Shown in pieces: positions 5,267-20,513 of a stretch of DNA of 64,000 bases. Each line of letters opens with the position of its first letter. Position 1 is the first letter of the stretch. Under the pieces are notes generated by a model. The model did no database searches. It was not told the origin of the DNA and saw only the letters and a program-made list of their open reading frames with translations. Made by a program: the position numbers and the translations under genes. The DNA comes from an endosymbiont of Galathealinum brachiosum (GTDB lineage: Bacteria; Pseudomonadota; Gammaproteobacteria; SZUA-229). The stretch covers positions 517,355 through 581,354 of the forward strand of contig QFXC01000011.1 in the NCBI GenBank assembly GCA_003349885.1, read 5' to 3'.

Positions 5267-5529
5267 ATGTTACTCATTCGCTAAATTATATTAACCGGCT
5301 GAAATCATAGCATGTCTGGGTATGAACAGGTTTCTATTAATTATTTGAAATAGTTTGAACTAATTTAAAATAAATTCGTCTTAATATTTGCAAGCCAGCA
5401 AAGTTGGACAGGGGAGATGGTTTGTCCCTGTCCGTTTTTTGTCTGATTCTCGTTAGAGTAAAAATATCCCAGTTTGTTCCATTTCTTGTCTAGAATGTTT
5501 CTATATGCCCTATTTACAGAATTCGTTCT

Positions 5530-6429: not shown

Positions 6430-7433
6430 AATGGAGTCGATTTATTAGTGTGTTGAGGGCGAGAGACAGGGAGTTTTTGCGTGATAGAAGTGCGCTCGCC
6501 TGGAATGTCATATTTCCATTATTAATTATCTTTGGTTTTGCTTTTGCATTTACCGGAGATCAGTTAACTCAGTATAAAGTGGGGGTTGTAAATCAGACTG
6601 ATGATGCGCAACTCGATTTCTACAGGTCTGAGTACATACAGTTTATACCGATAGTGGTAGCTGATAAAAATTCGGCTATTGATAAAGTGAAACGGCATCA
6701 GTTAGATATGCTGTTAGATGCAAAAGAGCGGCGTTATTGGGTGAATGACAGCTCTCCATCAGGTTATATGATAGAGAAAGTATTATCAGGCAGTGGTGGT
6801 GCAGGGTATCAGAAGCAGTTAGTGCAAGGTAAACAGATACGTTACGTTGACTGGCTCATTCCCGGTGTACTCGGTATGAATATGATGTTTAGTGCCCTGT
6901 TTGGCGTGGGTTATGTTGTTGTTCGATATCGAAAAAATGGCGTGCTTAAACGGCTTAAAGCAACCCCATTAAGTGCATTGGAGTTTCTATCTGCTCAGGT
7001 AGTATCCAGGTTGTGGCTGATTATGGTCATTACCACGGCCGTATTTATTGGTTGTGACCTCTTAATTGGCTTCGCTATGCATGGAAGTTATGTCAATTTA
7101 TTCATAGTATATGTGCTGGGAGCCTTTTCTATGATCAGTATGGGGTTGATAGTGGCTGCGCGCGTTAAATCAGAAGAAATGGCGGGAGGGCTGTTAAATA
7201 TGCTTTCCTGGCCTATGATGTTCTTATCTGGCGTCTGGTTTTCACTGGAAGGGCTTCATCCCTGGGTTCAAAAGATGGCACTGATATTCCCTCTTACTCA
7301 CATAACCCATGCAGCGCGTGGTATAATGCTGGACGGAGTCGGCCTGTTAGCTATATTGCCAAATCTGGTTTCTCTACTCGTTATGAGTGTTATTTTTTTA
7401 CTGCTAGGTGTGCTTTTATTCCGTTGGGAATGA
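6426..7433 (+). CDS. ABC-2 type transporter permease
   Basis: 335 aa hydrophobic multi-TM protein. Its start overlaps the ATPase stop by 4 bp, as expected for a translationally coupled permease partner. Confidence 0.7.
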   Translation: MKWSRFISVLRARDREFLRDRSALAWNVIFPLLIIFGFAFAFTGDQLTQYKVGVVNQTDDAQLDFYRSEYIQFIPIVVADKNSAIDKVKRHQLDMLLDAKERRYWVNDSSPSGYMIEKVLSGSGGAGYQKQLVQGKQIRYVDWLIPGVLGMNMMFSALFGVGYVVVRYRKNGVLKRLKATPLSALEFLSAQVVSRLWLIMVITTAVFIGCDLLIGFAMHGSYVNLFIVYVLGAFSMISMGLIVAARVKSEEMAGGLLNMLSWPMMFLSGVWFSLEGLHPWVQKMALIFPLTHITHAARGIMLDGVGLLAILPNLVSLLVMSVIFLLLGVLLFRWE

Positions 7434-7496
7434 AAGTCATATACTCTCCCCCAGAAAAGTGTATTTGCGTAGCAGATATTGTATTGAGGTTAAAAC

Positions 7497-7892
7497 ATGT
7501 TTCATTTAAGTGAAGAACGACAGGTTCTGCTAACGCAAAAAATTATGAGTAGTCTGGATGAATGGGGGCTTTGTGCCGCAGATCAGGTAACTGTTCTAAA
7601 TCTGCCAGAAGGTGTTCGTACGCGTAAATTACGTGCATTTCATGAAAATACTCCGTTGCCAAATGATGATAACGTTGAGTTCAGGGCAATTCGTATTCTG
7701 GGTATTATTGATGCTTTACGCACAACCTATCCGAAAAATGAAATGATGGGTGCTCGTTGGATGAAAAAACCGCATCGTCGTTTTCAAAACCGTCCACCGC
7801 TTCAGGTGCTGGTTGAAGAGGGTAATACAGGGGTAGATAGCGTATTAGCCGAACTGGATTGCTCATACGCCTGGGAGCTAAGTGCTAAATAA
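7497..7892 (+). CDS. hypothetical protein, DUF2384-like (Xre/MbcA/ParS antitoxin C-terminal domain-like)
   Basis: 131 aa. The C-terminal ARWMKKPHRRFQNRPPLQVLVEEGNTGVDSVLAELD resembles the toxin-binding domain of ParS/MbcA antitoxins. No RES-domain partner is adjacent. Confidence 0.35.
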   Translation: MFHLSEERQVLLTQKIMSSLDEWGLCAADQVTVLNLPEGVRTRKLRAFHENTPLPNDDNVEFRAIRILGIIDALRTTYPKNEMMGARWMKKPHRRFQNRPPLQVLVEEGNTGVDSVLAELDCSYAWELSAK

Positions 7893-8205
7893 CCATTTTG
7901 CTTTTTATCCCGGGAAGGCTCATCTCTGCATTAAAGAGCATGTGATTAGCGTTACGAGTATGTTTTTTAAAGTAACCATCGGCCTTTCTGGGTTAGGCAG
8001 AGTGATTAATGGCATTATCTACAGCTTTTTCGTTCGCATCGTTGCTGTGAAGCGAGATATTGTTTAAATTCTTGATTAAATCACCGGCAATTATCTTTTC
8101 TCCTGTCTATACTCTTTTCCATACTAATAATAATTTTTTAAATTTCTGATTTGTGCTTAACGGGATTGTTGGCACTGTCTATTTCACGTAATTGGGTAAT
8201 CTATA

Positions 8206-9726: not shown

Positions 9727-9769
9727 TGATCGTATCATTCTTAACTTTCTTTTCATGTGTAAGTTTATA

Positions 9770-10063
9770 TTAAAGCCAGGCCTGCACATTATGCGCTTCA
9801 ACCAGGTCGACGAACCCATCATAATCTGTGGTTTCAACTCCTGCAATTAAATCATCAACTCCTCGTGCTTTAATGTCGGCACTAAGTGCATATACCTTGC
9901 AGGTTTTTAGTAATGATTCAACAAGATAAGATTTGTTAGTGTTACCTGTGGCGGCATAAACAGCGTCTTCAAATAACAGGACTACATCGTCAGCACTTAC
10001 AAAACGTATGCAGCTTTCCAGGCTTGATGTGTTAAAGGGGGATTTATTAATAGTATGTAACAT
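9770..10063 (-). CDS. DsrH/TusB family sulfur relay protein
   Basis: 97 aa with a conserved N-terminal Cys (SLESCIRFV). Sits in the E-F-H operon order. Confidence 0.7.
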   Translation of the reverse strand: MLHTINKSPFNTSSLESCIRFVSADDVVLLFEDAVYAATGNTNKSYLVESLLKTCKVYALSADIKARGVDDLIAGVETTDYDGFVDLVEAHNVQAWL

Positions 10064-10085
10064 AAATATTTCTCAAAATATTGTT

Positions 10086-10484
10086 TTAAAAAGATAAAAT
10101 AGTATCCTGCTGTTTCATCATTTCTTTTAGTTGATCTGTAGACAGTGCTCTGGGATAAACAGTTTCTTCTGTTTCATCATCTTCACCAACAGAGATGAGT
10201 TGATCTGTAGAAATATTTCTATCTTTAAGTGAATCAGAGTCTACATATACGTTTTTAACATCCCAGTCAGCAAGGGCGCCCAATGATGCGCTGAATCCTT
10301 TAATTCCCAGGTCTTTAGTGTCCTGTCCTTTTTTAACTGAGAAAACACCATCATCAATAAAAACGATAGATAAATCCATTTCAAAAGAAGCCATGATAAA
10401 CATCACCTCTATAGCCTCCTGTACATAAATGGTTCCATGAGGGGCTTTACGTAATGTGATCATAAGTTTGTGAGCATCAGACAT
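10086..10484 (-). CDS. DsrF/TusC family sulfur relay protein (with a C-terminal acidic insertion)
   Basis: Aligns to TusC (RKAPHGT..., VFIDDGVF) and has no active-site Cys, as in TusC/DsrF. It carries a ~13-aa acidic insert (VGEDDETEETVYP) not seen in E. coli TusC. Confidence 0.65.
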   Translation of the reverse strand: MSDAHKLMITLRKAPHGTIYVQEAIEVMFIMASFEMDLSIVFIDDGVFSVKKGQDTKDLGIKGFSASLGALADWDVKNVYVDSDSLKDRNISTDQLISVGEDDETEETVYPRALSTDQLKEMMKQQDTILSF

Positions 10485-10493
10485 TTTTTCTCC

Positions 10494-10850
10494 TTAATCA
10501 CCAAAAGTAACTAATCGGTCAGAGTTTTGTATCATATTCGCCAGCTGGCCTAGCCCAGAAATACGTGTGTTTTCTATTAGAATATCTTCGGTCATTCCTC
10601 TACGCTTTGCAGCTGCAATACAAACTACAATATCAACTCCCTGACTGCCAACTTCTGACCAGCGATTTGAAATGTGCCGGTCATCCTGGGGTGGCTCCAT
10701 CATTTTGGTAACATTGTTTACACCATCATGATAAAAAAATATGCCAGTTATCTCGTGTCCCTTCTTTATAGCAGACTGTACAAATTGATAGGCGCTATCA
10801 GCAGCCTGATGATTGTATGGTCCCTCCTGAATTAAAATGGTTAATTTCAT
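10494..10850 (-). CDS. DsrE/TusD family sulfur relay protein
   Basis: 118 aa with the conserved Cys loop (VDIVVCIAAAKRRG), as in TusD/DsrE. Confidence 0.75.
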   Translation of the reverse strand: MKLTILIQEGPYNHQAADSAYQFVQSAIKKGHEITGIFFYHDGVNNVTKMMEPPQDDRHISNRWSEVGSQGVDIVVCIAAAKRRGMTEDILIENTRISGLGQLANMIQNSDRLVTFGD

Positions 10851-10873
10851 TATAAAACCCCTTAGTTATAAAA

Positions 10874-11212
10874 TTACTGGTACGCTTTGTCGCATCGCGC
10901 AGCCATAATAAAATCGTTAATAAATAAGCCTGACAGGCTATGTGTCCACCAGCTTAAATTTACTGTTCCCCATTCAATACAAATGCAGGGATGGTGGTTC
11001 TCTTCTTCAGCAAGGTCGGTCACCATATTGGCAAATTTCATGGCTGACCTGAAATCTTTAAATTTGTAATTTTTTATTATTTTTTGGCTGTCTTGCTGGT
11101 AATTAAGAGTCCAGCCGTTGAGTTCCCTCAGGTGTTTTTCAATTTCTATTGTAGACAGTGCTAAACTATCTTTGTCGCAAGTTTTTAATGACTGTTCAGT
11201 TAAAGTGATCAT
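10874..11212 (-). CDS. phhB: pterin-4a-carbinolamine dehydratase
   Basis: 112 aa with the PCD signature EEENHHPCICIEWGTVNLSWWTHSLSGLFINDF ([E]xxxHHP...W...H...D). Confidence 0.8.
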   Translation of the reverse strand: MITLTEQSLKTCDKDSLALSTIEIEKHLRELNGWTLNYQQDSQKIIKNYKFKDFRSAMKFANMVTDLAEEENHHPCICIEWGTVNLSWWTHSLSGLFINDFIMAARCDKAYQ

Positions 11213-11319
11213 GAGAAGGTCTCTTTATTCTAAAGGGAGCATATAAGTCGCTTTTTATTATTAGAAATGCCCTTTAATATATTAGTAGAAAATTAGAAAA
11301 AAACGAATTTAAAGAAAAG

Positions 11320-11697
11320 ATGACAATGAAATATATGGCCGAGGTGGAAGAATTTCGTGACAAACTAAAGTCAGGTGGCAAGCCATTTTTATTAAGAAAT
11401 AGACTGCCAGCCGTAAAAGTAGAGCTAGAGTTTGAAGGGCTACTTAATGGTATGCCTGTGGTATGGCACGCCTGCATTAGAACGGTGGAAGATTGTTCGT
11501 TGAATAATCAGGTTTCTGATGATCCAAAGCAATTTATAAAAATTGAAATTATTGACGGTAGACATGAACTTGAAGTTGCTTTAAATCTTAATGTCATTGA
11601 TATGGCTACGCTAGAGCGTACTATAATTATGATTAGAAAATATAAGCGATTACAGCCCGGATGCCATGAATATGGTGCGCGAAGTAAGACAGAATAG
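11320..11697 (+). CDS. hypothetical protein (125 aa)
   Basis: ORF only. Immediately upstream of, and on the same strand as, the ParA-like gene. Confidence 0.3.
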   Translation: MTMKYMAEVEEFRDKLKSGGKPFLLRNRLPAVKVELEFEGLLNGMPVVWHACIRTVEDCSLNNQVSDDPKQFIKIEIIDGRHELEVALNLNVIDMATLERTIIMIRKYKRLQPGCHEYGARSKTE

Positions 11698-11746
11698 ATT
11701 TTAAAATTTATGGCTTAGGTTAACTGGTTAAGGATAGATATCAGCA

Positions 11747-12409
11747 ATGAAGCGTATAGTTGTAATTAATACTAAAGGTGGGTGTGGTAAGACGACAGTC
11801 TCCACCAATCTGGCGAGCTATTATGCATCTAAAGGATTTAATACCGCATTATTTGATTATGATCCTCAGGGTTCAAGTATGCGCTGGTTGAAGCTTCGGG
11901 AAGGTGATATGTCGGATATATATGGTGTGGTTGCGCATAAAAATTCAGCCAAAGCAGTTACCATGAGCTGGCAATTGCGATTACCGGCAGAAACAGAACG
12001 GGTTATTATAGATACGCCACCGGGATTAAAAGGCCCGGAGCTCAAGGAGCAATTAAAAGGCGCAGATAAAATTCTAATACCTGTTCTACCTTCCCCTCTG
12101 GATATTTTTGCTACAGCTGATTTTATTCGTGATTTGCTGCTTGATGTTAAGGTTCGATTAAATCAGACCAGTATCGGCATTGTGGCAAATCGGGTTAGAA
12201 AAAATACGGTTGCTTTTCAATCTTTAGAGCGTTTTTTAAGTTCATTAAATATACCAGTAGTTGCTAGATTAAGGGATACGCAGAATTATTTACGTGCGAC
12301 TGAAGAGGGTATGGGGATACATGAATTAAAGGGTAAAAATGTGTATCTGGATAGAACGCACTGGAAAGGTATAGTTGAGTGGCTGGACAGGAATGATCAG
12401 AATTTATAA
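11747..12409 (+). CDS. ParA/MinD-family P-loop ATPase (orphan, no parB)
   Basis: Deviant Walker A NTKGGCGKTT at the N-terminus. 220 aa. No ParB-like partner nearby. Confidence 0.75.
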   Translation: MKRIVVINTKGGCGKTTVSTNLASYYASKGFNTALFDYDPQGSSMRWLKLREGDMSDIYGVVAHKNSAKAVTMSWQLRLPAETERVIIDTPPGLKGPELKEQLKGADKILIPVLPSPLDIFATADFIRDLLLDVKVRLNQTSIGIVANRVRKNTVAFQSLERFLSSLNIPVVARLRDTQNYLRATEEGMGIHELKGKNVYLDRTHWKGIVEWLDRNDQNL

Positions 12410-12450: not shown

Positions 12451-13212
12451 TTATTTCTTTTTTCTTCTGCTTATGAGGCCTAGTCCAGTGATTCCAGACA
12501 GGAGCAGTAAGAAGGCGGGTGGTAATGGAACAGGCGTAACGGGTGGAGATATACTTGTTATAGAAGAATTCAAAGCAGCTGTTAATGATAATGCCATTGG
12601 GCTAGTTGAGTTTGCCTGCAAATCAATAAACAAAGACTCGTTTAGCGTTTCCCCCAGTGAAATATCAAAATCAGATAAATCTATTGAAGCGGCCATTAAC
12701 CGAACATTTGAATAAGTTGAGCCATCCCAGTCAACGCGATTAGCAACCTGTTCTGTGCCTGACGTGCTGAAAACATTGGAGACAGTTAATGCCTGGCTTA
12801 CACCATTTATAGAAACGGTTGCATCATTTTGTGTCTGGTCCCAGATAAAAAAGAAGGCAAGATCATCGCCATTACCATTCAGGGCGAAAGTTTGGCTAAA
12901 GTCTAATTCCAGAGACAGGCTGCCGGCACCTTGCATTGCTGCTAAAGACGTGGACAGGTCAGAATCTGTAGTATCGTTAGGTGTATTGGTGTTAGCCCAG
13001 GCCTGACCAGTGTATGTTAGCCATGAGTTACTATCTCTGTTTCCTGCGTACCAGGATGTGCCGTTGTATGCTGTGCCCTGACCTGAAATGAGTTGATCGG
13101 CAACAGCATTATCTTCAAATGCATATGAGCCAATACTTGCAGCATTAACCTGTGAGCCTGCAGCAAGTGCTGCAAATAACAAAACGGGTTTTAAAATAAC
13201 GTTAATGTTCAT
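12451..13212 (-). CDS. secreted protein with C-terminal PEP-CTERM-type (VPLPA-like) sorting signal
   Basis: N-terminal signal peptide (LLFAALAAGSQVNA), then a ~200-aa Ser/Thr/Asn/Asp-rich domain. The C-terminus TPVPLPPAFLLLLSGITGLGLISRRKKK has the motif - TM helix - basic tail layout of PEP-CTERM sorting domains. Confidence 0.65.
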   Translation of the reverse strand: MNINVILKPVLLFAALAAGSQVNAASIGSYAFEDNAVADQLISGQGTAYNGTSWYAGNRDSNSWLTYTGQAWANTNTPNDTTDSDLSTSLAAMQGAGSLSLELDFSQTFALNGNGDDLAFFFIWDQTQNDATVSINGVSQALTVSNVFSTSGTEQVANRVDWDGSTYSNVRLMAASIDLSDFDISLGETLNESLFIDLQANSTSPMALSLTAALNSSITSISPPVTPVPLPPAFLLLLSGITGLGLISRRKKK

Positions 13213-13261: not shown

Positions 13262-13585
13262 CTACTGAAAAGGCGCCGGTGGCGGCGGCGGTAGTGTTAC
13301 AGGAGTTGGTGGGGCAGAGATAACGGGCGTAGATGCATCTATATTGCTGAACCCGGCAATAGTGTTAGGTGTCAGTATTGCTTCACGCAGAAATGCCGAA
13401 TTCTCATTTGGGCGGAAGTTAACGTTAGGTGTTTTAGCTGGTGGAGGCGTTACTCTGGCAACAGGGCCAGCAGCAGGTTTAAGTCCCTCAGACCATTTCC
13501 CCCATGTGTATACAGAGTCCTGCTCTATTGCTGATGCATGCATGGGTACAAGTAATGCGATTGCTAATAAATATATTCTTTTCAT
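13262..13585 (-). CDS. secreted proline-rich protein (107 aa from ATG at 13583-13585)
   Basis: Signal peptide MKRIYLLAIALLVPMHASA. The C-terminus is Pro-rich (APPTPVTLPPPPPAPFQ). Contains a PAAG tetrapeptide. Confidence 0.45.
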   Translation of the reverse strand: MKRIYLLAIALLVPMHASAIEQDSVYTWGKWSEGLKPAAGPVARVTPPPAKTPNVNFRPNENSAFLREAILTPNTIAGFSNIDASTPVISAPPTPVTLPPPPPAPFQ

Positions 13586-13947: not shown

Positions 13948-15210
13948 TTAGAAGAAATAGCGGCGCATATTTAGCGCATAGGTATCTCTGTCATATTCGG
14001 TTTCTGCTATATTTGAATCATTATTAGTAAATGTATATTGAGCATTTAGTGTCCATGATCTCAATAAGCCTGTGCGGAAATCATGACTCACCCCTAATAC
14101 AACAAGTAATTCTGTTTCATCACGTATTTCAGTAAAGCTATTGGCTGTATCTATGGCTTTATATTTGTAGTCTCGGCTACTGGCAGTTAAATAAGCCAGC
14201 GCATCATCCCAGGCGGGCATCTGTCCACCGAGATAATATTCGGCACCTGTGTAGTGAAGTGTGCCATCAACTGCACCATTATCGTGATACCTGATGCCCC
14301 CCTGAATCCCTATTGACTGGCGTTCAAAGAATTTTGCAAGGTCAATATTCCATGTTGTCATGGTGCCCCTGAGTCCCTGATCTTCCGGCTGATCATATTC
14401 CCGAATTGATGTTTTGTTTTCGAAAGTGATTTCAAGGTCTTTTGTGATGCTGTAGGTCGCTAAAGGATTAATGCCTATATATTGGGCATAGTCTTCCTTG
14501 CCAAATATGAGCTTGTCAATTTTAAAATTCAAAGCAGCACGCCATTTTTCTTCAGCTATTAGTGCAGGACCGGTGTTTAAGGTTAATACAGATAAATTGA
14601 AGTCAGTATCATCTGAGCCATAAACTCTGCTGAAAGCCGTTGCCTGAGTATGCCATTCAAAATCAACTATGGAGCCGCCCATGTGTAAGGCCTGACTCGC
14701 TCTTGAGCGGTGTGAATAAGTGAACATGAACTGGCCACCACTACCACTTTGCTCGAGTGTTTCTGGTGTGACGCCGGTTATATCTTTGCCAGGGCCCAGA
14801 TTGATATTTGAATCAGTAAACATACCAGCAGAAATATACATGGAAGAGGTAGATCGTTGAGCAGCTGTTTTTATATCACCTGATAATTGAGCTAAATAAG
14901 CGGTTATAGATAATTTAACTTCATCAGGTGTTTCCGGGTCATTTAAAACAGTGGTTAATTCATCTTTTGCATCTTGATAACGACGTGTCAGGTGATAAGA
15001 GATGGCGAGTTCCAGACGCGCACGATTAAGGCCTGGCTGATTACTTAAAATAGTTTCAAATATTTCAATGGATTTGAATAACTCACCATCCTGACGATAA
15101 CGCATCGCTTCGTTAAATAAAGTCTCCGGATCTACGGCTTCTTCAGCGTAGACAGGTGGTGCGAGAAGCGCTGTAGATAAACAGGCTGATACCAGAATTC
15201 TCCTGATCAT
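13948..15210 (-). CDS. outer-membrane protein: N-terminal TPR-like domain + C-terminal beta-barrel (Slam/DUF560-like architecture)
   Basis: Signal peptide (LLAPPVYAEE). The helical TPR-like N-terminal ~110 aa is followed by alternating amphipathic beta-strand sequence ending in ...RRYFF (C-terminal Phe OMP signature). Confidence 0.5.
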   Translation of the reverse strand: MIRRILVSACLSTALLAPPVYAEEAVDPETLFNEAMRYRQDGELFKSIEIFETILSNQPGLNRARLELAISYHLTRRYQDAKDELTTVLNDPETPDEVKLSITAYLAQLSGDIKTAAQRSTSSMYISAGMFTDSNINLGPGKDITGVTPETLEQSGSGGQFMFTYSHRSRASQALHMGGSIVDFEWHTQATAFSRVYGSDDTDFNLSVLTLNTGPALIAEEKWRAALNFKIDKLIFGKEDYAQYIGINPLATYSITKDLEITFENKTSIREYDQPEDQGLRGTMTTWNIDLAKFFERQSIGIQGGIRYHDNGAVDGTLHYTGAEYYLGGQMPAWDDALAYLTASSRDYKYKAIDTANSFTEIRDETELLVVLGVSHDFRTGLLRSWTLNAQYTFTNNDSNIAETEYDRDTYALNMRRYFF

Positions 15211-15478
15211 TTAAATATCCTCAATACAATAAGTAATTTTTCGTGATATTGACGTTTTTTAGGTGTTTTTACAAGGAAAACCGTGATTCTTATCCCATAT
15301 GGGGGGGTGTACTAATTAAGTGTGGGCAGATGAATCAGGTGGTATATACATGAAAAATTGATATTAAAGCCCGTCGCTAGCTATAAGCTATTTTTAAAAG
15401 CGTCCTTAGGCTATTATATTTAACGGTAATTAGCTTAAGCAGGTATGAGTTGTTGATCTACGTAAAGAAGGCGCAAGT

Positions 15479-16114
15479 TTGAGGCAAAAAAGTAAATATT
15501 TACTACATTTTTTGAGTTTGTTGTTTGTTGTGATTCCAGATATTGCTTTGGCAGGGCTTTTTGGATATCAGGAAAATGAACGTGAAAATTTAAAGATGTT
15601 TCCTCAATGGTTATCTGTCTTAGAACGAAATATCAAAGAAAGTGCGCCAGAGGGTAATTGTGAAAGTAGTCGGCTGGATAGTTGTCATGTGAAAAACTGG
15701 TTAAGTTTTCTGAAAAGCATTCGGCATCTTTCAAAAATGCAGCAGATAAATAAGGTTAATCTTTATGCCAATGAGCATGACTATATTTTAGATATAGAAA
15801 ATTACGGTGTTAAAGATTACTGGGCGACTCCCAGAGAGTTTTTATACAATAATGGTGACTGTGAAGATTATGCAATAACTAAAATGCTCTCATTAAAAAT
15901 GTTAGGTTTTAATATGAAGGGTATTAGGTTGGTAGTATTGCAGGATACAAACTTGAGAACACCTCATGCTGTTTTAGCATTGCACACTAAAAATGATATT
16001 TTGATAATGGATAATCAGGTGGATGAGGTTGTGTCACATAAACATATTGTACATTATGTGCCGGTTTATGCAGTGAATGAAAATAAGTGGTGGATGTTTT
16101 TGCCGCAACAATAA
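15479..16114 (+). CDS. periplasmic transglutaminase-like cysteine proteinase (BTLCP / Peptidase C93, LapG-like)
   Basis: TTG start with a GAAGG RBS. Signal peptide, then a candidate C-H-D triad in the conserved context (NNGDCEDYAITK ... TPHAVLALH ... IMDNQ). Confidence 0.65.
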   Translation: MRQKSKYLLHFLSLLFVVIPDIALAGLFGYQENERENLKMFPQWLSVLERNIKESAPEGNCESSRLDSCHVKNWLSFLKSIRHLSKMQQINKVNLYANEHDYILDIENYGVKDYWATPREFLYNNGDCEDYAITKMLSLKMLGFNMKGIRLVVLQDTNLRTPHAVLALHTKNDILIMDNQVDEVVSHKHIVHYVPVYAVNENKWWMFLPQQ

Positions 16115-16165
16115 TGCGAAATTAATCTGTTGTTTAGCTTGCTAAAGTATTTATAAGATAAATGT

Positions 16166-18187
16166 ATGAAAGATAAAAGAACTTCAAAAAAAACAAATTC
16201 CCCTCCCTTGCTGGCAAGTATTTTTCTGGTGTTTTTTGTCGCGATAAGTTTGTGGTTGATTTTTGAGTATGCAGAAAAAGAGAGAAGTCGTGATTTAATA
16301 AACTGGAAAACCCGATTAGCTTTACTGGCTGAGATACGCGCGGCGGCTGTTGAAGACTGGATTGGATTGAGGAAAATCCAGTTGAATAAACTGGCGGAAA
16401 ATGCCAGTTTAAGATTATATCTTTCGGCATATAATAATCGTGATGAAGTTGATAAAAATGTATTGGGCGCTGAGCAGGGGCACGTAAGAAACTTATTACG
16501 AGCAAGCGCGGATCGTTTTGGCTTTGCAGAAAATATAAGCGCGATAAATAAAAATAATTCAAGTGATTATGGACTAGCGATTTTAGATGCAAATCGCCAG
16601 CTTGTTATGTCTACAAAAGGTTTTCCAGATAATGTTGATATACATAGCGGTGTTATAGATAAAGTATATTCGACAGCAAAGTCGCTGATAATAGATTTAT
16701 ATGCGGGGGAAAATAAACAACCGGTTTATGGTTACATAATACCTGTATTTCAGATTCAGGATCTTGAAGCAGTGAATCCTGTTGGCGCAGTTATGCTGTT
16801 GCTGGATCCACAAAAGAATCTATTTTCTATATTAAAAAACAAACAAAGTGTAACGATTTCTGATGAAACATTGCTTGTTAAAAGAGATGGACCAAGCCTT
16901 GTTTTCTTAAGTCCGGTGAAAGGCGAGTTTAAACTGTTTTATCGTCTTCCTGATAATAACAATCAGTTAGCCGCATCTTATGCGTATCATAACCCGGGTG
17001 GTTTTAAAGAAATCAAGGATTATAGAGGAAATGACGTACTGGTGACGGGTCGTAAAATCAAGAATAGCCCCTGGGGGTTAGTGCAGAAAATTTCTTCTTC
17101 TGAAGCGTTAGCTGAATCGAACAAACATCAGGAGTTTTTAATAACAACATTTATATTGTTTGTGATTGGAGTCGCAGCCGCGTTTGTTGCAATCTGGCGT
17201 CACAGTACCAGTTTGCGTTTACAGTCTTTGAGTGATGAGCTTGAAGTTAGAACAGTTTTGCTAGATGCTGTTACGGATAATATAAAAGATAATATTCTTT
17301 TACTGGATCATGATTCAAAAATTATTTTTATAAATATTGCATTTGCAAAAGCCTTGTCGCTGGATGTTGATGAAATAAGATCAAAGCACATAACCAGTGT
17401 GCTTGGAAAGGAAACGGCAGAATCATTAGTTAATAGTTCATGTGAAGATAGTAAAGCATGTGTTATGGCGTTACAGATAGAGGCCAGTGAGCGTGTATAC
17501 CATGTGTCATCTACTCGGCTGGAGTCGGGTGCGCATCAAAGTGCAACTTTATATGTATTGCACGATATAAGCGAGTTAAAGCAGGAGCAGGAAAAACGTG
17601 AACAACTGGGGCAAGGGATTATTCAAACTTTAGTTAAAGCGGTAGATTTGCATGATCCGTTTTGTATCAATCATTCTGAGCGTACGCGTGATGTTGCAGT
17701 AGAAATAGCTAAAGAAATGGATTTAACTAATATTCAGTTAGAGTCTCTTGAAATGGCGTCTTTACTTGCCAATATAGGTAAGTTATTCGTGCCGAAGGAG
17801 ATCCTGATTAAAATGGAAGCATTGTCAGATGATGAGTCTAAACAATTGAAAAAGCATATTGAGTATGCTGTTGATATATTGTCAGGGCTTTCGTTTAATG
17901 GACCTGTTGTTGATATAATTTCACAGAAAAATGAACGACTTGATGGCAGTGGGTATCCTAAAGGTATAACAGGTAATGATATTATGCTTGAATCACGAAT
18001 CCTGGCTGTAGCAAATGCATTCGTCGCAATGGCTAGTTCGCGAGCGTATCGAGAAGGCCGTGATGTAAAAGAAGTAATGAATATCCTTCTAGAACAGTCT
18101 GAATCATTATATGACCGTCATGTTGTTGCTGCTTTATTTCATATATCAGAGAATAAAGCAGACTGGAAAACGTGGCAGAGTATATAA
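16166..18187 (+). CDS. membrane sensor: periplasmic Cache-like domain - TM - PAS - HD-GYP c-di-GMP phosphodiesterase
   Basis: TM helices at ~residues 15-37 and ~321-343, bracketing a ~285-aa Cache-like periplasmic domain. A PAS-like region follows, then HD-GYP motifs (DLHDPFCINHSERTRD ...NIGKLFVP... ERLDGSGYPKGI). Confidence 0.7.
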   Translation: MKDKRTSKKTNSPPLLASIFLVFFVAISLWLIFEYAEKERSRDLINWKTRLALLAEIRAAAVEDWIGLRKIQLNKLAENASLRLYLSAYNNRDEVDKNVLGAEQGHVRNLLRASADRFGFAENISAINKNNSSDYGLAILDANRQLVMSTKGFPDNVDIHSGVIDKVYSTAKSLIIDLYAGENKQPVYGYIIPVFQIQDLEAVNPVGAVMLLLDPQKNLFSILKNKQSVTISDETLLVKRDGPSLVFLSPVKGEFKLFYRLPDNNNQLAASYAYHNPGGFKEIKDYRGNDVLVTGRKIKNSPWGLVQKISSSEALAESNKHQEFLITTFILFVIGVAAAFVAIWRHSTSLRLQSLSDELEVRTVLLDAVTDNIKDNILLLDHDSKIIFINIAFAKALSLDVDEIRSKHITSVLGKETAESLVNSSCEDSKACVMALQIEASERVYHVSSTRLESGAHQSATLYVLHDISELKQEQEKREQLGQGIIQTLVKAVDLHDPFCINHSERTRDVAVEIAKEMDLTNIQLESLEMASLLANIGKLFVPKEILIKMEALSDDESKQLKKHIEYAVDILSGLSFNGPVVDIISQKNERLDGSGYPKGITGNDIMLESRILAVANAFVAMASSRAYREGRDVKEVMNILLEQSESLYDRHVVAALFHISENKADWKTWQSI

Positions 18188-18308: not shown

Positions 18309-20513
18309 ATGTATGAATCTTTTTATGGGCTTACGGAAAAGCCATTTACATTATTACCTGATCCGGACTATTTATATCTGAGTCCTAAACATCAACGGGC
18401 GTTGACGCTTCTTGAATATGGCATGATGAATCAGGCTGGCTTTAGCGTAATCTGTGGTGATACAGGGGCTGGTAAAACAACCCTGATTCGACGTCTCTTG
18501 ACTGAATTGGGTGATGACACCAAAGTCGGTCTTATAAATAATACCCATCACTCATTTGGTGAATTGCTTAACTGGGTTTTGATGGCATTTGGCATTGATG
18601 GTGACGGCAAGAGCAAAGCCCAGATGCACCAGATGTTCATCGACTTTCTGATTGAACAGTATGCTCAGAATAAACACACAGTTTTGATAGTTGATGAAGC
18701 GCAGAACATGAAGGCCGATACATTAGAAGAACTGCGCATGTTGTCGAATATTAATTCAGATAAAGATCAGGTGTTACAGGTTATTCTGGCGGGGCAACCT
18801 GCACTGCGTGAAACTTTACGCCAGCCTGAGTTAATGCAGTTTGCGCAGCGTATAGCCGTAGATTATTACCTTGAATCACTGAGTGTTGAGGAAACAAATG
18901 CTTATATTCATCACCGACTAAAGGTTGCGGGCACTGAAAATACGATTTTCACGGATGCCGCCTGTGAAGCAATATTTAAATACAGTGGTGGGACACCGCG
19001 ACTAATTAACCTTCTTTGTGATACAGCACTTGTATATGGTTTTGCTGAGCAAAGCGAAGAAATAAGCGAACAATTAGTACATGACGTAGTGCGCGAGCAA
19101 CATAGCAATAGCATTATACCTACGTTTAACACGGATCATTCTGGTTCGGTTTCCAATCCAGCTAAGAATAGCCCGGATCCTGCCCCATTAGTTGATGTGC
19201 CGATTACACAAAGTGATCAGAAAATAAGTGAGCAGAGTGCTGCTTATGAAAAAACAGAAAAAAAGGTCGTAGTTGCTGAGCCACCAGTTAACGAAGAAGA
19301 TAGAGCAGAGAAATCAGCTGAATTACTTCAGCAAGCCAGTCAACAGACAGCCAGTGTGGTCGGTAGTGCTGAGTCGACAGCTCCAGTTTCTCATACAGAG
19401 TCTTTGTCTGGTATAGAAAAGGCACAGATTAGAAATACGGCTAATGACACTTCAAAAGATGAATCTAATGTAACACCGATAAAGGCTGTGCTGTCTGAAG
19501 CGGAAGAAGTAATTGAAGAGTTAGATGCGGCTGAATTAGAGGATGATACAGATCAGCAAGTTGCGTCTGACGTTAAAGAGCCTGAGCAGGCGAGATCAGA
19601 TGAGACGTTTAAAGAGCCAGTTGATCAGGATCAGGAAAGCGGGTCTGGTGAAAGCTCACCAGAAGATATCCTTAGCCATAATGCCCCTGAAATGGGAAGG
19701 CGAAAAGAGGATGTTGAAGAAATAGCACCATATATGTCACGTAGAAAGCGTGATAACGAAGATGACGATGTTTATCCGATTGTGCATATAGAAGAGAATC
19801 CGAATAAGGGATTCAATATGGTAGTGATTGGCGTTGTTGGGGGAATGTTTGTTGCTTCCATTATAATGATGATAGCTGCCTGGACGATGTTTGGATCAAA
19901 AGATAATATTGATCAACAGGCTGTACAGAAAAACTTAAATCAGCAATTACAGTTAGAGGATGAAAGTCGTGAGCTTAAAGCATTGCAAAAAGAGCGTGAT
20001 GCAGCTTTAGCCGTAACACGCGCGCTTGAAAGAGAGCGTGATGCAGCGATAACTGCAGCAAAAGCACAGGAAGAAATTCGTGCAGCCGAGTTACGTGCAG
20101 CCGAGATATTAGCTGAGCAGCAACGTAGAGCGGATAAGAAATTACAGCAGGCTAGAGCCCGAATAAGAGAGGCTGAACTAGCTGAGTCTAAGGCACTGGC
20201 ACGAGAACATGAAATGCAGCTAGCAGCTGAAAGAAAAGAGTCTGAGTTAGAAAATGAGCGTCTTAGGCTGCTTCGTAAAGAACGGATAAGATTAGAAGCT
20301 CTTGCAGTTGATGAAGAAATGGCCGCAATACGTTTGAAAGAAAAACAAAGCCTTATAGAAGAGTCAGAAGTAGTTGATGAAGTAGTTGATGAAGTAGCGG
20401 ATGAAGTAGCGGATGAAGATAAAGTCCAGACAAAACCCGAAGAAGCTAAGAGTTTTTCATCAAATCCATGTAATAGTCCTTCAGCAAAATTTTTGTCTAC
20501 CTGTAAAAAGTAA
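18309..20513 (+). CDS. ExeA/GspA-family AAA ATPase fused to acidic linker, TM helix and TolA-like periplasmic coiled coil
   Basis: N-terminal FYGLTEKPFTLLPDPDYLYLSPKHQRALTLLEYGMMNQAGFSVICGDTGAGKTTLIRRLL (ExeA/MshM-type Walker A) with Walker B LIVDEAQN. A long acidic low-complexity region is followed by a TM helix (VVIGVVGGMFVASIIMMIAAW), an Ala/Glu/Arg-rich coiled coil and a VDEV tandem repeat. Confidence 0.65.
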   Translation: MYESFYGLTEKPFTLLPDPDYLYLSPKHQRALTLLEYGMMNQAGFSVICGDTGAGKTTLIRRLLTELGDDTKVGLINNTHHSFGELLNWVLMAFGIDGDGKSKAQMHQMFIDFLIEQYAQNKHTVLIVDEAQNMKADTLEELRMLSNINSDKDQVLQVILAGQPALRETLRQPELMQFAQRIAVDYYLESLSVEETNAYIHHRLKVAGTENTIFTDAACEAIFKYSGGTPRLINLLCDTALVYGFAEQSEEISEQLVHDVVREQHSNSIIPTFNTDHSGSVSNPAKNSPDPAPLVDVPITQSDQKISEQSAAYEKTEKKVVVAEPPVNEEDRAEKSAELLQQASQQTASVVGSAESTAPVSHTESLSGIEKAQIRNTANDTSKDESNVTPIKAVLSEAEEVIEELDAAELEDDTDQQVASDVKEPEQARSDETFKEPVDQDQESGSGESSPEDILSHNAPEMGRRKEDVEEIAPYMSRRKRDNEDDDVYPIVHIEENPNKGFNMVVIGVVGGMFVASIIMMIAAWTMFGSKDNIDQQAVQKNLNQQLQLEDESRELKALQKERDAALAVTRALERERDAAITAAKAQEEIRAAELRAAEILAEQQRRADKKLQQARARIREAELAESKALAREHEMQLAAERKESELENERLRLLRKERIRLEALAVDEEMAAIRLKEKQSLIEESEVVDEVVDEVADEVADEDKVQTKPEEAKSFSSNPCNSPSAKFLSTCKK
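20372..20419 (+). repeat. 4 x 12-bp tandem repeat (gtagttgatgaa / gtagcggatgaa) inside the ExeA-like CDS
   Basis: Direct tandem copies encoding (V[VA]DE)x4. A slippage-prone in-frame repeat. Confidence 0.7.

What the first reader, a model, noticed from the sequence alone, without database searches (positions are those of the whole stretch)
15479..18187. LapG-like periplasmic cysteine protease co-transcribed with a Cache-PAS-HD-GYP membrane protein (LapD-like logic, opposite enzymology)
The 211-aa secreted protein has the Cys/His/Asp arrangement of bacterial transglutaminase-like cysteine proteinases (GDCEDYA...HAVLALH...D). Fifty-one bp downstream on the same strand is a 673-aa protein with TM - ~285-aa Cache-like periplasmic domain - TM - PAS - HD-GYP, where both the HD and the GSGYP motifs are intact. 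In the Pseudomonas LapD/LapG paradigm the inner-membrane partner is a catalytically dead c-di-GMP receptor that sequesters the protease. Here the partner is predicted to degrade c-di-GMP and has a ligand-binding Cache fold, suggesting periplasmic protease or ligand binding could control c-di-GMP hydrolysis, or the reverse.
Basis: partly seen in the sequence, partly recalled or inferred. Interest (0 to 1): 0.6.

Follow-up and report, generated by a model that had tools for sequence, protein, structure and literature searches.

The report
c-di-GMP-gated protease beside Slam-like transporter
The protease gene is real, but its membrane partner is a catalytically dead c-di-GMP sensor of the recently described DvhD type rather than an active enzyme; what is new is that the pair always sits beside a Slam-like outer-membrane transporter and secreted proteins that carry the protease's known cut-site motif.

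Summary
Both ORFs exist as described: 15479-16114 and 16166-18187, 51 bp apart. The 211-aa protein is a secreted BTLCP whose Cys128/His163/Asp178 and GDCED calcium site align to LapG.

The key claim about the partner is wrong. The true HD motif reads AN, HH reads KN, and six of the eight PmGH metal ligands are lost. These changes are fixed across the family. The GYP loop and the c-di-GMP contact residues of D. vulgaris DvhD are kept. All three modules (dCache, PAS, HD-GYP) match the DvhD structures 9RC2/9RC0/9RBZ best. The pair is therefore a DvhD/DvhG-type c-di-GMP receptor plus protease. It follows LapD logic with the same enzymology, not the opposite.

The context is new. There is no T1SS or giant adhesin nearby. 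Across divergent Gamma/Betaproteobacteria the pair stays linked to a TPR + 14-strand Slam/T11SS-like OMP. It also stays linked to secreted proteins with an invariant N-terminal "WGxW...PAAG" module, and PAAG is a validated LapG cleavage site. Larger versions of these proteins carry the TbpB-type barrel typical of T11SS cargo.

Best reading: c-di-GMP-gated proteolysis of T11SS-like cargo. The receptor-protease pairing is well supported; the substrate link is inferred.

The parts
15479..16114 (+). Secreted BTLCP (Peptidase_C93) cysteine protease of DvhG/LapG type, 211 aa. It has a signal peptide ending around ...DIALA|G. Catalytic residues are Cys128 (nt 15860-15862), His163 and Asp178, with a GDCED Ca2+ site.
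   Evidence: Pfam gives 69 bits. The NCBIfam LapG equivalog gives only 78 bits against a cutoff of 320. The triad aligns to 4U65/4FGO and is at least 95% conserved in 120 homologues. Identity is 44% to a DvhD-associated Desulfovibrionaceae BTLCP, against 28-32% to the LapG structures.
16166..18187 (+). DvhD-like inner-membrane c-di-GMP receptor, 673 aa. Layout: TM1 (~14-34), periplasmic dCache (~37-324), TM2 (~325-345), PAS (~365-478), degenerate HD-GYP (~488-653). The HD motif reads AN (535-536), HH reads KN (588-589), the D305 equivalent is N617, and the GYP motif at 596-598 is intact.
   Evidence: Domain calls come and hydropathy. 9RC0 (DvhD PAS/HD-GYP) matches at E 1.8e-38 over residues 363-665. 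DvhD canonical c-di-GMP contacts are conserved: L553, M622, R626, Y628, Y597, Q644 and F499. The periplasmic model has pLDDT 84, and its top PDB hit is 9RC2, the DvhD periplasmic domain, at E 5e-10 and TM 0.66/0.75.
15211..15478 (.). 268-bp divergent intergenic region between the OMP arm and the protease/receptor arm. It presumably holds promoters for both directions.
   Evidence: Only weak sigma-70-like matches were found, not above shuffled expectation.
13948..15210 (-). Slam/T11SS-like outer-membrane protein, 420 aa: signal peptide, an N-terminal TPR domain (~27-116) and a 14-strand beta-barrel (~120-418).
   Evidence: For the window protein, TPR_Slam gives E 1e-6 and SlipAM E 9e-3, both below cutoff. 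At family level TPR_Slam hits 36/36 members and SlipAM 14/36, with best E 1.5e-10. The AF2 model has pLDDT 87, pTM 0.74 and 14 strands. The best PDB folds are 14-strand OmpG barrels. The gene is adjacent to the BTLCP in 17 of 21 gamma/beta-type loci.
13262..13585 (-). Small secreted protein, 107 aa counted from the ATG at 13585. It has a signal peptide, a conserved module DSVYTWGKWSEGLKPAAG (nt 13466-13519), an FRPNENSAF block and a proline-rich tail. It is the candidate BTLCP substrate.
   Evidence: It has no Pfam or NCBIfam family. The module is invariant in 4 orthologues that are 41-57% identical overall. 46 of 50 true family representatives carry W..W..PAAG. The module is present next to the Slam-like OMP in 14 of 16 evaluable divergent loci. 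Starting from this protein, metagenome loci show the OMP in 33/33, the BTLCP in 27/27 and the receptor in 24/24. PAAG is a validated LapG site.
12451..13212 (-). Secreted 253-aa protein with a C-terminal VPLPA/PEP-CTERM sorting tail (VPLPPAFLLLLSGITGLGLISRRKKK). It is the last gene of the OMP arm and a probable exosortase-sorted surface protein.
   Evidence: NCBIfam VPLPA-CTERM gives E 7e-5 at 22.7 bits, against a cutoff of 25.35. The tail is conserved in orthologues. HMM hits also occur in L005, L008, L009, L014 and L015, always just after the PAAG gene.
18309..20513 (+). ExeA/GspA-like AAA_22 ATPase, 734 aa. It has one TM segment (~500-530) and a long acidic, coiled-coil-like remainder. It lies 121 bp downstream of the receptor gene. 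It is a peripheral element, conserved only in the closest clade.
   Evidence: AAA_22 gives 95.8 bits. TIGR03015, the XrtA/PEP-CTERM system-associated ATPase, gives 302.9 bits against a cutoff of 324.5. The gene is present in L001-L004 and in the close metagenome clade, but not in L005-L022.

Best explanation
The two genes encode a DvhG/DvhD-type signalling pair.

The 673-aa inner-membrane protein is a receptor, not an enzyme. Its HD-GYP domain has lost the metal centre needed for hydrolysis but keeps the pocket that binds c-di-GMP in DvhD. By analogy with DvhD and LapD, c-di-GMP binding in the cytoplasm changes the PAS/stalk dimer. That change is relayed through the membrane to the periplasmic dCache domain, which then restrains the secreted calcium-dependent BTLCP protease. 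When c-di-GMP falls, the protease is freed.

The likely targets are not T1SS giant adhesins. They are the Sec-exported proteins encoded on the divergent arm. These carry an N-terminal 'DSVYxWGxW...PAAG' module and are handled by the adjacent Slam/T11SS-like outer-membrane protein. Cutting between the two alanines would separate the short N-terminal module from the rest of the protein, and so release or mature the surface cargo.

What is shown: the domain identities, the degeneracy, the conserved binding residues, the fold matches, the synteny and the motif conservation. What is inferred: c-di-GMP binding, protease control, cleavage at PAAG, and transport by the OMP.

My confidence in the receptor-protease layer is about 0.85. 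My confidence in the PAAG/T11SS-cargo layer is about 0.5.
For: Receptor layer:
- 9RC0/9RBZ (DvhD) is the best sequence match, at E 1.8e-38.
- 9RC2 (the DvhD dCache) is the best fold match among 350,542 chains.
- The metal ligands are lost and the loss is fixed in the family.
- DvhD canonical contacts are conserved in 100-118 of 118 homologues.
- DvhD was shown experimentally to bind c-di-GMP, not to hydrolyse it, and to control DvhG.
- A BTLCP is adjacent to a DvhD-like gene in about 68 of 84 loci from four proteobacterial classes.

Protease layer:
- The triad and the Ca2+ site align to LapG and are conserved.
- The protease is closer to DvhD-associated BTLCPs (44% identity) than to LapG (28-32%).

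Substrate layer:
- In divergent genomes only the BTLCP, the receptor, the Slam-like OMP and the PAAG-module genes stay together. L010 has them rearranged onto one strand.
- The PAAG module is present in 14 of 16 evaluable loci and in 46 of 50 family representatives.
- The reciprocal co-occurrence test gave 33/33, 27/27 and 24/24.
- PAAG fits the [T/A/P]AAG consensus and is a mutation-validated LapG site in FrhA.
- DvhG docks its substrates through two aromatic residues just before the site, which parallels the invariant W...W here.
- Larger PAAG proteins in L018 and L022 end in a TbpB_B_D barrel, the T11SS cargo handle.
- The OMP is TPR plus a 14-strand barrel, with family-level Slam Pfam hits.
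Against: - No biochemical data exist for this family. c-di-GMP binding, protease activity and cleavage at PAAG are all untested.
- The DvhD 'bridging' c-di-GMP site is not conserved (K520->H, R569->E/D), and K582 is S/N, so affinity and stoichiometry may differ.
- The window's own PAAG protein is only 107 aa and lacks a TbpB-type barrel, so it is not a canonical T11SS cargo.
- The part N-terminal to the cut site would be only about 16 residues, which is not a folded retention domain like that of LapA.
- The window OMP scores below both Pfam Slam cutoffs, and no Slam structure is available in the PDB for comparison.
- Four of the 50 family members have PASG/PTSG/PGAG instead of a di-alanine.
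- In Alphaproteobacteria the pair occurs without any OMP or PAAG neighbour, so remote substrates are common. A T1SS adhesin elsewhere in this genome could not be excluded, because only 64 kb was available.
- Within the closest clade, housekeeping genes (pyruvate kinase, ParA) are equally syntenic, so that part of the co-occurrence is weak evidence.
Confidence: 0.55

Rival explanations
1. One reading: the partner is an active HD-GYP phosphodiesterase, and its c-di-GMP hydrolysis is controlled by periplasmic ligand or protease binding.
For: A strong HD_5 Pfam hit and an intact DGSGYP loop. Public annotations call relatives 'c-di-GMP phosphodiesterase class II'.
Against: Six of eight metal ligands are replaced, and the replacement is invariant in the family. 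The homologous DvhD domain, with the same pattern, shows no hydrolysis with any metal tested. An HD-GYP protein elsewhere in the same window (55962-57119) keeps HD, HHE and GYP, so the loss is specific to this protein.
Confidence: 0.03
2. It is a standard Dvh/Lap system whose true substrate is a T1SS (or T5bSS) giant adhesin encoded elsewhere in the genome. The Slam-like OMP and PAAG genes are merely neighbours, or share only regulation.
For: All characterised LapG/DvhG substrates are large adhesins. The Desulfovibrionaceae locus L082 has ABC and HlyD genes next to the pair. The alphaproteobacterial pairs stand alone, so trans-encoded substrates must exist in at least some lineages.
Against: There is no T1SS or adhesin gene in the 64-kb window, nor within +/-8-10 kb in any gamma/beta-type locus. 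The OMP and PAAG genes are the only partners retained across divergent genomes and across a rearrangement. An invariant, validated cleavage motif in the neighbouring protein is unlikely to arise by chance: my rough estimate for one [TAP]AAG in 100 residues is about 1%, and here it is conserved in 46 of 50 family representatives.
Confidence: 0.25
3. The PAAG proteins are cut by the BTLCP, but cleavage is a maturation or licensing step needed for export or assembly (removal of an N-terminal pro-segment). Alternatively the small protein is a pseudo-substrate or adaptor that tunes the protease. In either case cleavage is not a release switch for surface-anchored cargo.
For: The segment upstream of the scissile bond is only about 16 residues, too short to act as a LapA-like plug. 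The window protein lacks a cargo barrel. There is no lipobox to anchor it.
Against: The Lap and Dvh precedents are all release switches. The larger homologues have a full passenger plus a T11SS handle, which suggests displayed cargo.
Confidence: 0.15
4. The membrane protein is mainly an outside-in sensor. Its dCache domain binds a small extracellular ligand, and the degenerate HD-GYP signals by protein-protein contact without c-di-GMP. The protease adjacency is incidental.
For: dCache domains are typically ligand sensors, and the fold hits are chemoreceptor ligand-binding domains. The bridging c-di-GMP site is not conserved.
Against: The canonical c-di-GMP contacts are nearly invariant. The BTLCP adjacency holds in four proteobacterial classes and in two gene orientations. 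DvhD itself showed no ligand density in its dCache.
Confidence: 0.05

Closest known systems
DvhD/DvhG of Desulfovibrio vulgaris Hildenborough (Karbelkar et al. PNAS 2024, PMC10990149; Font et al. Nat Commun 2026, PMC13090378; PDB 9RC0, 9RBZ, 9RC2)
   Same: The receptor has the same architecture: TM, dCache, TM, PAS, then an HD-GYP with a dead metal site, the shared LAVANAF motif and an intact GYP loop. The canonical c-di-GMP contacts are conserved. A BTLCP gene is adjacent. The substrate motif is of the [T/A/P]AAG type.
   Different: Identity is only 36% in the HD-GYP domain and 16% in the dCache. The HD motif reads AN/KN rather than SQ/MN. The bridging c-di-GMP site is not conserved. The protease has a cleavable signal peptide rather than the membrane anchor of D. 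vulgaris DvhG. There is no T1SS or giant adhesin; a Slam-like OMP and small or medium PAAG proteins take their place. The host is a gammaproteobacterial sulfur-oxidising symbiont, whereas the papers describe Dvh systems as mainly deltaproteobacterial.
LapD/LapG/LapA/LapE of Pseudomonas fluorescens (and the orthologous V. cholerae, Bordetella, Legionella and Shewanella systems)
   Same: The logic is the same: a degenerate c-di-GMP-metabolising domain acts as an inside-out receptor that controls a periplasmic Ca2+-dependent BTLCP, which cuts at a di-alanine near the N-terminus of an outer-membrane-associated protein.
   Different: The receptor is unrelated: no LapD_MoxY_N, HAMP, GGDEF or EAL domain was found. 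The protease scores 78 bits against the LapG equivalog cutoff of 320. The outer-membrane partner is a TPR + 14-strand barrel rather than a TolC-like T1SS channel.
LapG control of CdrA/CdrB in Pseudomonas aeruginosa (type Vb secretion; PMC4694147, cited in PMC13090378)
   Same: This is a precedent that a BTLCP switch can be coupled to an outer-membrane transporter other than a T1SS.
   Different: CdrB is a TpsB/Omp85-type transporter and CdrA is a large adhesin. Here the transporter is Slam-like and the candidates are much smaller.
Slam / type XI secretion systems (DUF560 OMPs with TbpB-, fHbp- and hemophilin-type cargo; PMC5449769, PMC8406197, PMC12282271)
   Same: The OMP has an N-terminal TPR domain plus a 14-strand barrel. 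Cargo genes are adjacent. In L018 and L022 the cargo ends in a TbpB_B_D barrel.
   Different: The sequence relationship is distant: the window OMP scores below the Pfam cutoffs. The candidates are Sec proteins, not lipoproteins. The window's candidate lacks the cargo barrel. Neither of the two T11SS papers searched for these terms (PMC8406197, PMC12282271) contains 'transglutaminase', 'cysteine protease', 'c-di-GMP', 'HD-GYP' or 'PEP-CTERM'.

Membership tests
BTLCP / Peptidase_C93 | Pfam PF06035 hit above the gathering score | tested here: met
   69 bits against a cutoff of 27.
BTLCP / Peptidase_C93 | Cys-His-Asp triad and the adjacent Ca2+-binding D-C-E-D | tested here: met
   C128, H163, D178 and GDCED align to 4U65/4FGO. 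They are at least 95% conserved in 120 homologues.
LapG (NCBIfam NF045674 equivalog) | Score at or above the equivalog cutoff | tested here: not met
   78 bits against 320. Identity to the LapG structures is 28-32%.
LapD | LapD_MoxY_N periplasmic domain, HAMP domain, and degenerate GGDEF-EAL domains | tested here: not met
   None of these Pfam families was reported at E <= 0.01. The hits were dCache_1, PAS and HD_5.
Active HD-GYP phosphodiesterase | Complete set of metal ligands (PmGH E185, H189, H221, D222, H250, H276, H277, D305) | tested here: not met
   Only the H189 and H250 equivalents (H503, H564) remain. The others are F499, A535, N536, K588, N589 and N617.
DvhD-type c-di-GMP receptor | TM, periplasmic dCache, TM | tested here: met
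   Two TM segments. The AF2 model has pLDDT 84, and its top PDB fold hit is 9RC2, the DvhD periplasmic domain, at E 5e-10.
DvhD-type c-di-GMP receptor | Cytoplasmic PAS + HD-GYP homologous to DvhD, with a degenerate metal site and an intact GYP loop | tested here: met
   9RC0 matches at E 1.8e-38 over residues 363-665. The LAVANAF motif is shared, and both proteins have lost HD and HH.
DvhD-type c-di-GMP receptor | Canonical c-di-GMP contact residues (DvhD Y523, L577, K582, Y621, M646, R650, Y652, E668) | tested here: met
   Five are identical (L553, Y597, M622, R626, Y628). Two are conservative changes (F499, Q644). K582 is replaced by S. Family conservation is 100-118 of 118.
DvhD-type c-di-GMP receptor | Bridging c-di-GMP site (K520, P567, R569) | tested here: not met
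   The equivalents are H496, P543 and E545. In the family the R569 position is E or D in 103 of 118.
DvhD-type c-di-GMP receptor | Binds c-di-GMP without hydrolysing it, and controls the adjacent BTLCP | not testable with these tools
   This needs ITC, HPLC and reconstitution experiments. Only the adjacency was tested: about 68 of 84 loci.
Dvh/Lap adhesin operon | T1SS genes and a giant adhesin with a retention module in the same locus | tested here: not met
   None is present in the 64-kb window or in the gamma/beta-type loci. The control locus L082 does have ABC and HlyD genes. The rest of the genome was not available.
Slam / T11SS outer-membrane protein (DUF560) | N-terminal TPR plus C-terminal 14-strand barrel matching PF24575 and PF04575 | tested here: inconclusive
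   The window protein scores 29.3 bits on PF24575 (cutoff 35.2) and 16.1 bits on PF04575 (cutoff 22). At family level PF24575 hits 36/36 and PF04575 14/36, with best E 1.5e-10. The AF2 model shows TPR plus 14 strands. There is no Slam structure in the PDB to compare against.
Slam / T11SS cargo | Adjacent Sec-dependent protein ending in a TbpB-type 8-strand barrel | tested here: inconclusive
   This is met in relatives: L018 scores 27.0 bits and L022 scores 26.1 and 24.5 bits, against a cutoff of 26. It is not met by the window's 107-aa protein, which has no Pfam domain.
LapG/DvhG substrate | [T/A/P]AAG di-alanine site preceded by a hydrophobic docking element, near the N-terminus of an exported protein | tested here: met
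   KPAAGP lies at residues 36-41, after the signal peptide and WGKW. It is invariant in orthologues and present in 46 of 50 representatives. PAAG is validated in FrhA. Actual cleavage is not testable here.

The most novel reading that the evidence does not exclude
The Lap/Dvh principle is c-di-GMP-gated periplasmic proteolysis that decides whether a protein stays on the cell surface. In a broad set of sulfur-oxidising and related Gamma/Betaproteobacteria, this principle may be wired to a type XI (Slam-like) secretion system instead of a type I system. The 'DSVYxWGxW...PAAG' segment would then be a portable N-terminal cleavage and retention tag, fused to cargo that ranges from roughly 85-residue proline-rich peptides to 400-residue TbpB-barrel proteins. 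That would be the first regulated release mechanism for T11SS cargo, and a third class of outer-membrane conduit under BTLCP control.
Probability: 0.45. Interest if true: 0.7.

Novelty: new variant of a known kind. Interest (0 to 1): 0.55.

Why it matters
Three consequences follow.

1. Annotation. This whole family is labelled in public databases as 'HD-GYP c-di-GMP phosphodiesterase class II', 'PhoR' or hypothetical. The residues indicate a non-catalytic receptor, so c-di-GMP turnover budgets inferred for these genomes are wrong.

2. Distribution. The DvhD/DvhG solution, described in 2024-2026 as mainly deltaproteobacterial, also occurs in Gamma-, Beta- and Alphaproteobacteria. Carriers include cultured Chromatiaceae (Marichromatium, Thiocystis) and animal symbionts.

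3. Secretion biology. If the linkage to the Slam-like OMP is functional, it gives T11SS biology its first regulatory input. It also gives Lap/Dvh biology a new class of small substrates that are easy to test with a short peptide reporter. For a tubeworm endosymbiont, such a switch could govern the change between surface-attached and free states during host colonisation.

Tried and rejected
- Metal-ligand table. My first table used PDB chain indices that are offset by 6 from the published PmGH numbering, and gave nonsense. I redid it by motif and offset. The DvhD contact table was checked against residue identities and is correct.
- AFDB fold library. It was not available, so the OMP could only be compared with the PDB. 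The PDB holds no Slam structure, and the hits are generic 14-strand barrels.
- Metagenome scan. A 37-sequence alignment of PAAG proteins was too divergent to seed the scan. A 12-sequence alignment worked.
- Alphaproteobacterial loci. I searched them for a neighbouring signal-peptide protein with [TAP]AAG and found only scattered, non-homologous hits. No conserved substrate candidate exists there.
- A fourth conserved gene. An apparent extra 'gene' cluster in 13 loci proved to be antisense shadow ORFs over the BTLCP and receptor genes.
- Promoter and terminator scans. They gave nothing above background between the two genes. This is compatible with co-transcription but is not evidence for it.
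- The Galperin & Chou HD-GYP census (PMC9017333) is not held.
- Supplements of the DvhDG paper. They contain no gamma- or alphaproteobacterial taxon names, and the class-level figure could not be read.
- LapD-type receptor. Rejected, because none of its domains is present.

Full report
OBSERVATION

A 211-aa ORF lies at 15479-16114 (+). It has a TTG start preceded by AAGAAGG. A 673-aa ORF at 16166-18187 (+) follows after 51 bp. The window is identical to a MAG named 'endosymbiont of Galathealinum brachiosum', genes DIZ80_10895 to DIZ80_10905.

The first protein has a signal peptide. It hits Pfam Peptidase_C93 at 69 bits against a cutoff of 27. It scores only 78 bits against the NCBIfam LapG equivalog, whose cutoff is 320. 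In HMMER alignments to the LapG structures 4U65 and 4FGO, its GDCEDYA, HAVLA and IMDNQ segments line up with the catalytic Cys, His and Asp regions and with the calcium-binding D-C-E-D. Cys128, His163 and Asp178 are conserved in at least 95% of 120 homologues.

The second protein has two hydrophobic segments, about 14-34 and 325-345. It has a weak dCache_1 hit, a PAS_9 hit at threshold, and a strong HD_5 hit of 148.9 bits.

THE ERROR: THE HD-GYP DOMAIN IS DEGENERATE

I aligned the domain to three enzymes solved as active phosphodiesterases: PmGH 4MCW, V-cGAP3 5Z7C and PA4781 4R8Z.
- The catalytic LLHDIGK reads LLANIGK (A535, N536).
- The HHE(R/K)xDG(T/S)GYP block reads KNERLDGSGYP (K588, N589).
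- The Asp of VAD.FDA is N617.
- The position of PmGH E185 is F499.
- Only the equivalents of H189 and H250 (H503, H564) remain.

The degeneracy is a fixed family character. AN occurs in 109 of 109 close homologues. K is at the first His in 109 of 109. N or S is at the second His in 107 of 109. N is at D305 in 101 of 109. A more distant alphaproteobacterial branch is degenerate in its own way, with MN or IN for HD and LQ or VQ for HH, plus the same AVANAF motif. The DGSGYP loop is intact. Another HD_5 protein in the same window (55962-57119) retains HD, HHE and GYP, so the loss is not a property of the genome.

WHAT IT IS

The best PDB sequence matches are 9RC0 and 9RBZ. 9RC0 matches at E 1.8e-38 and covers PAS plus HD-GYP, residues 363-665. 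These are the cytoplasmic fragments of D. vulgaris DvhD.

Font et al. 2026 and Karbelkar et al. 2024 show the following about DvhD:
- It is TM, dCache, TM, PAS, then HD-GYP.
- SQ replaces HD, and MN replaces HH.
- It binds c-di-GMP with a Kd of about 0.3 uM and does not hydrolyse it with any metal tested.
- It changes the conformation of its stalk helices on binding.
- It confers c-di-GMP control over the adjacent BTLCP, DvhG. This makes it a functional analogue of LapD built from different parts.

I mapped the published DvhD contact residues onto the alignment. Chain index plus 490 equals DvhD numbering, which I verified on eleven residues. At the canonical site:
- Kept: L577, M646, R650, Y652 and Y621, which are L553, M622, R626, Y628 and Y597 here. 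They are present in 108-118 of 118 homologues.
- E668 is Q644.
- Y523 is F499.
- K582 is not kept.
The 'bridging' site is not conserved, with K520->H and R569->E.

I modelled the periplasmic region, residues 37-328, with a 38-sequence alignment. The model has pLDDT 84 and pTM 0.81, and shows a long helix followed by two alpha/beta lobes. Its best match among 350,542 PDB chains is 9RC2, the DvhD periplasmic domain, at E 5e-10 and TM 0.66/0.75. That is ahead of all chemoreceptor dCache domains. All three modules therefore point to DvhD.

The protease agrees with this. It is 44% identical to a BTLCP that sits beside a DvhD-like gene in a Desulfovibrionaceae MAG, against 28-32% to the LapG structures.

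DISTRIBUTION

A scan of one genome per species returned 80 loci of this BTLCP subfamily. They fall into these groups:
- Gammaproteobacteria: Chromatiales, Thiohalobacter, and the cultured Marichromatium bheemlicum and Thiocystis violacea.
- Betaproteobacteria: an Azonexaceae MAG.
- Alphaproteobacteria: Rhodospirillales, Kordiimonas, Dongia, Magnetospira and Micavibrio.
- Desulfobacterota.

A DvhD-like gene is adjacent in about 68 of the 84 loci. It is co-directional and downstream in the gamma type, and divergent in the alpha type. [quoted passage not shown] The spread seen here is wider than that text indicates. I could not read the class-level figure of the 2026 paper.

SURROUNDINGS: WHERE THE LOCUS DEPARTS FROM DVH

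The window contains no T1SS component and no giant adhesin. Three genes run divergently from the protease:
- A 420-aa OMP at 13948-15210 (-).
- A 107-aa secreted protein at 13262-13585 (-).
- A 253-aa protein with a VPLPA/PEP-CTERM tail at 12451-13212 (-).
An ExeA-like AAA_22 ATPase follows the receptor gene.

The OMP. Its model has pLDDT 87 and shows TPR helices followed by a 14-strand barrel. All 36 family members hit Pfam TPR_Slam, and 14 hit the Slam barrel model SlipAM with best E 1.5e-10. The window protein itself is below both cutoffs.

Synteny in the close clade. In close relatives the whole block, including pyruvate kinase and ParA, is syntenic. That says little on its own.

Synteny in divergent genomes. 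In L005-L022, where BTLCP identity to the window is 44-62%, the flanks differ. The only gene clusters retained around the protease are the receptor (21 loci) and the Slam-like OMP (17 loci). One other apparent cluster is antisense shadow ORFs.

THE CANDIDATE SUBSTRATE

The small protein has no known family. After its signal peptide it reads DSVYTWGKWSEGLKPAAGP.

This block is invariant in orthologues that are only 41-57% identical overall. A motif and HMM search of the divergent loci found a protein next to the Slam-like OMP in 14 of 16 evaluable loci. Each has a signal peptide followed by DS[VA]xxWGxW-x(4-6)-PAAG, or AAAG or TAASG in two Chromatiales loci. Downstream regions of these proteins are unrelated, and total lengths run from 107 to 455 aa. 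L022 has two paralogues, and L010 has the whole set rearranged on one strand.

A phmmer search of 1.84 billion representatives found 50 true family members. 46 of them carry W..W..PAAG, and four carry PASG, PTSG or PGAG.

The reciprocal test started from this protein in metagenomes. Every locus with enough flank had the OMP (33/33), the BTLCP (27/27) and the receptor (24/24).

PAAG fits the [T/A/P]AAG consensus shared by LapG and DvhG. In V. cholerae FrhA, changing PAAG to PRRG abolishes LapG cleavage. DvhG docks its substrates through two conserved aromatic residues just upstream of the site, and the invariant W28 and W31 occupy a comparable position here.

The large versions of the PAAG protein end in a Pfam TbpB_B_D barrel with the typical GSFYG...GG signature. 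L018 scores 27.0 bits and L022 scores 26.1 and 24.5 bits, against a cutoff of 26. This barrel is the recognised handle of Slam/T11SS cargo. They have Sec signal peptides and no lipobox.

MECHANISM

Shown:
- A secreted BTLCP with a complete triad.
- A membrane protein whose every module is DvhD-like and which cannot bind the catalytic metals.
- A conserved four-gene association with a Slam-like OMP and PAAG-module proteins.

Inferred:
- At high c-di-GMP the receptor holds the protease inactive.
- At low c-di-GMP the protease cuts between the alanines of PAAG. This detaches the short N-terminal WGxW segment from the remainder of a protein that the Slam-like OMP exposes or exports, and so releases or matures it.

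I give about 0.85 to the receptor-protease layer and about 0.5 to the substrate layer.

Weak points:
- The window's own candidate is tiny and lacks a cargo barrel.
- The piece N-terminal to the cut is only about 16 residues, unlike a LapA retention domain.
- The OMP is only a distant Slam relative.
- Alphaproteobacterial pairs have no such neighbours, so remote substrates exist in some lineages.
- The rest of this genome could not be searched for a T1SS adhesin.

COMPARISON AND NOVELTY

As a gene pair this is a new member of the DvhD/DvhG kind, not of LapD/LapG. The membership table gives the tests.

The unreported element is the coupling of this switch to a T11SS-like OMP and to a portable PAAG tag. 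This is as far as the held literature shows. Neither T11SS bioinformatics paper that I searched for these terms (PMC8406197, PMC12282271) contains 'transglutaminase', 'cysteine protease', 'c-di-GMP', 'HD-GYP' or 'PEP-CTERM'. The text of the Dvh papers discusses only T1SS, plus the P. aeruginosa T5b case.

I therefore rate the finding as a new variant of a known kind, with interest 0.55. The corrected pair alone would be modest. The T11SS link is specific, testable with a peptide reporter, and would interest both the c-di-GMP and the secretion fields.

Noticed in passing
window 55962-57119 (+): A second HD_5 protein, 385 aa and soluble, keeps HD (YMHDAGM), HHE and GYP (QHHEQVDGCGYP). It therefore looks like a catalytically competent HD-GYP phosphodiesterase and serves as an internal contrast to the degenerate receptor.
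   Followed up: partly
window 50196-51344 (+): A response-regulator receiver domain fused to a GGDEF domain. The signature motif reads GVSRF instead of GG(D/E)EF, so it is probably non-catalytic.
   Followed up: partly
window 46236-47099 (-) and 3776-5266 (-): An HDOD-domain protein and a HAMP + class III nucleotidyl cyclase membrane protein. The window is rich in second-messenger signalling genes. The cyclase is also syntenic with the cassette in L002 and L003.
   Followed up: no
window 18309-20513 (+): A 734-aa ExeA/GspA-like AAA_22 ATPase just under the TIGR03015 (XrtA/PEP-CTERM system-associated ATPase) cutoff. It has one TM segment and a very acidic, coiled-coil-rich remainder. It follows the receptor gene only in the closest clade. 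Its relation to the PEP-CTERM-tailed protein on the other arm is unexplained.
   Followed up: partly
window 12451-13212 (-): A secreted protein with a VPLPA/PEP-CTERM sorting tail but no exosortase gene in the 64-kb window. Homologues always sit directly after the PAAG gene (L005, L008, L009, L014, L015). It may be a further surface component of the system.
   Followed up: partly
window 15479-16114 (+), residues 61 and 69: This BTLCP subfamily has two invariant cysteines (C61, C69) and conserved LFGY and FPQWL blocks. They lie in an N-terminal extension that is outside the regions aligned to the LapG structures. A periplasmic disulfide is possible.
   Followed up: no
L082 (Desulfovibrionaceae MAG) 5742-7817 and 9769-11871: Two DvhD-like paralogues flank a glycosyltransferase and the BTLCP gene, downstream of ABC and HlyD T1SS genes. 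This suggests receptor duplication within a Dvh locus.
   Followed up: no
L022 (Azonexaceae MAG) 5252-6619 and 6820-8109 (-): Two tandem paralogous PAAG-module proteins with C-terminal TbpB-type barrels and different passenger regions. They resemble a diversifying cargo pair.
   Followed up: partly
L001 1-2671 (-): In one relative, the cassette lies next to a 2,398-aa RHS/YD-repeat protein with a Transglut_core domain, a polymorphic-toxin-like gene. It gave a weak hit (37.7 bits) to the HMM of the PEP-CTERM-tailed protein.
   Followed up: no
window 42260-43288 (-) and 43485-45854 (-): A full-length DUF1631 protein (789 aa) is followed by a 342-aa ORF that matches only the C-terminal part of DUF1631. 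This may be a partial duplication.
   Followed up: no
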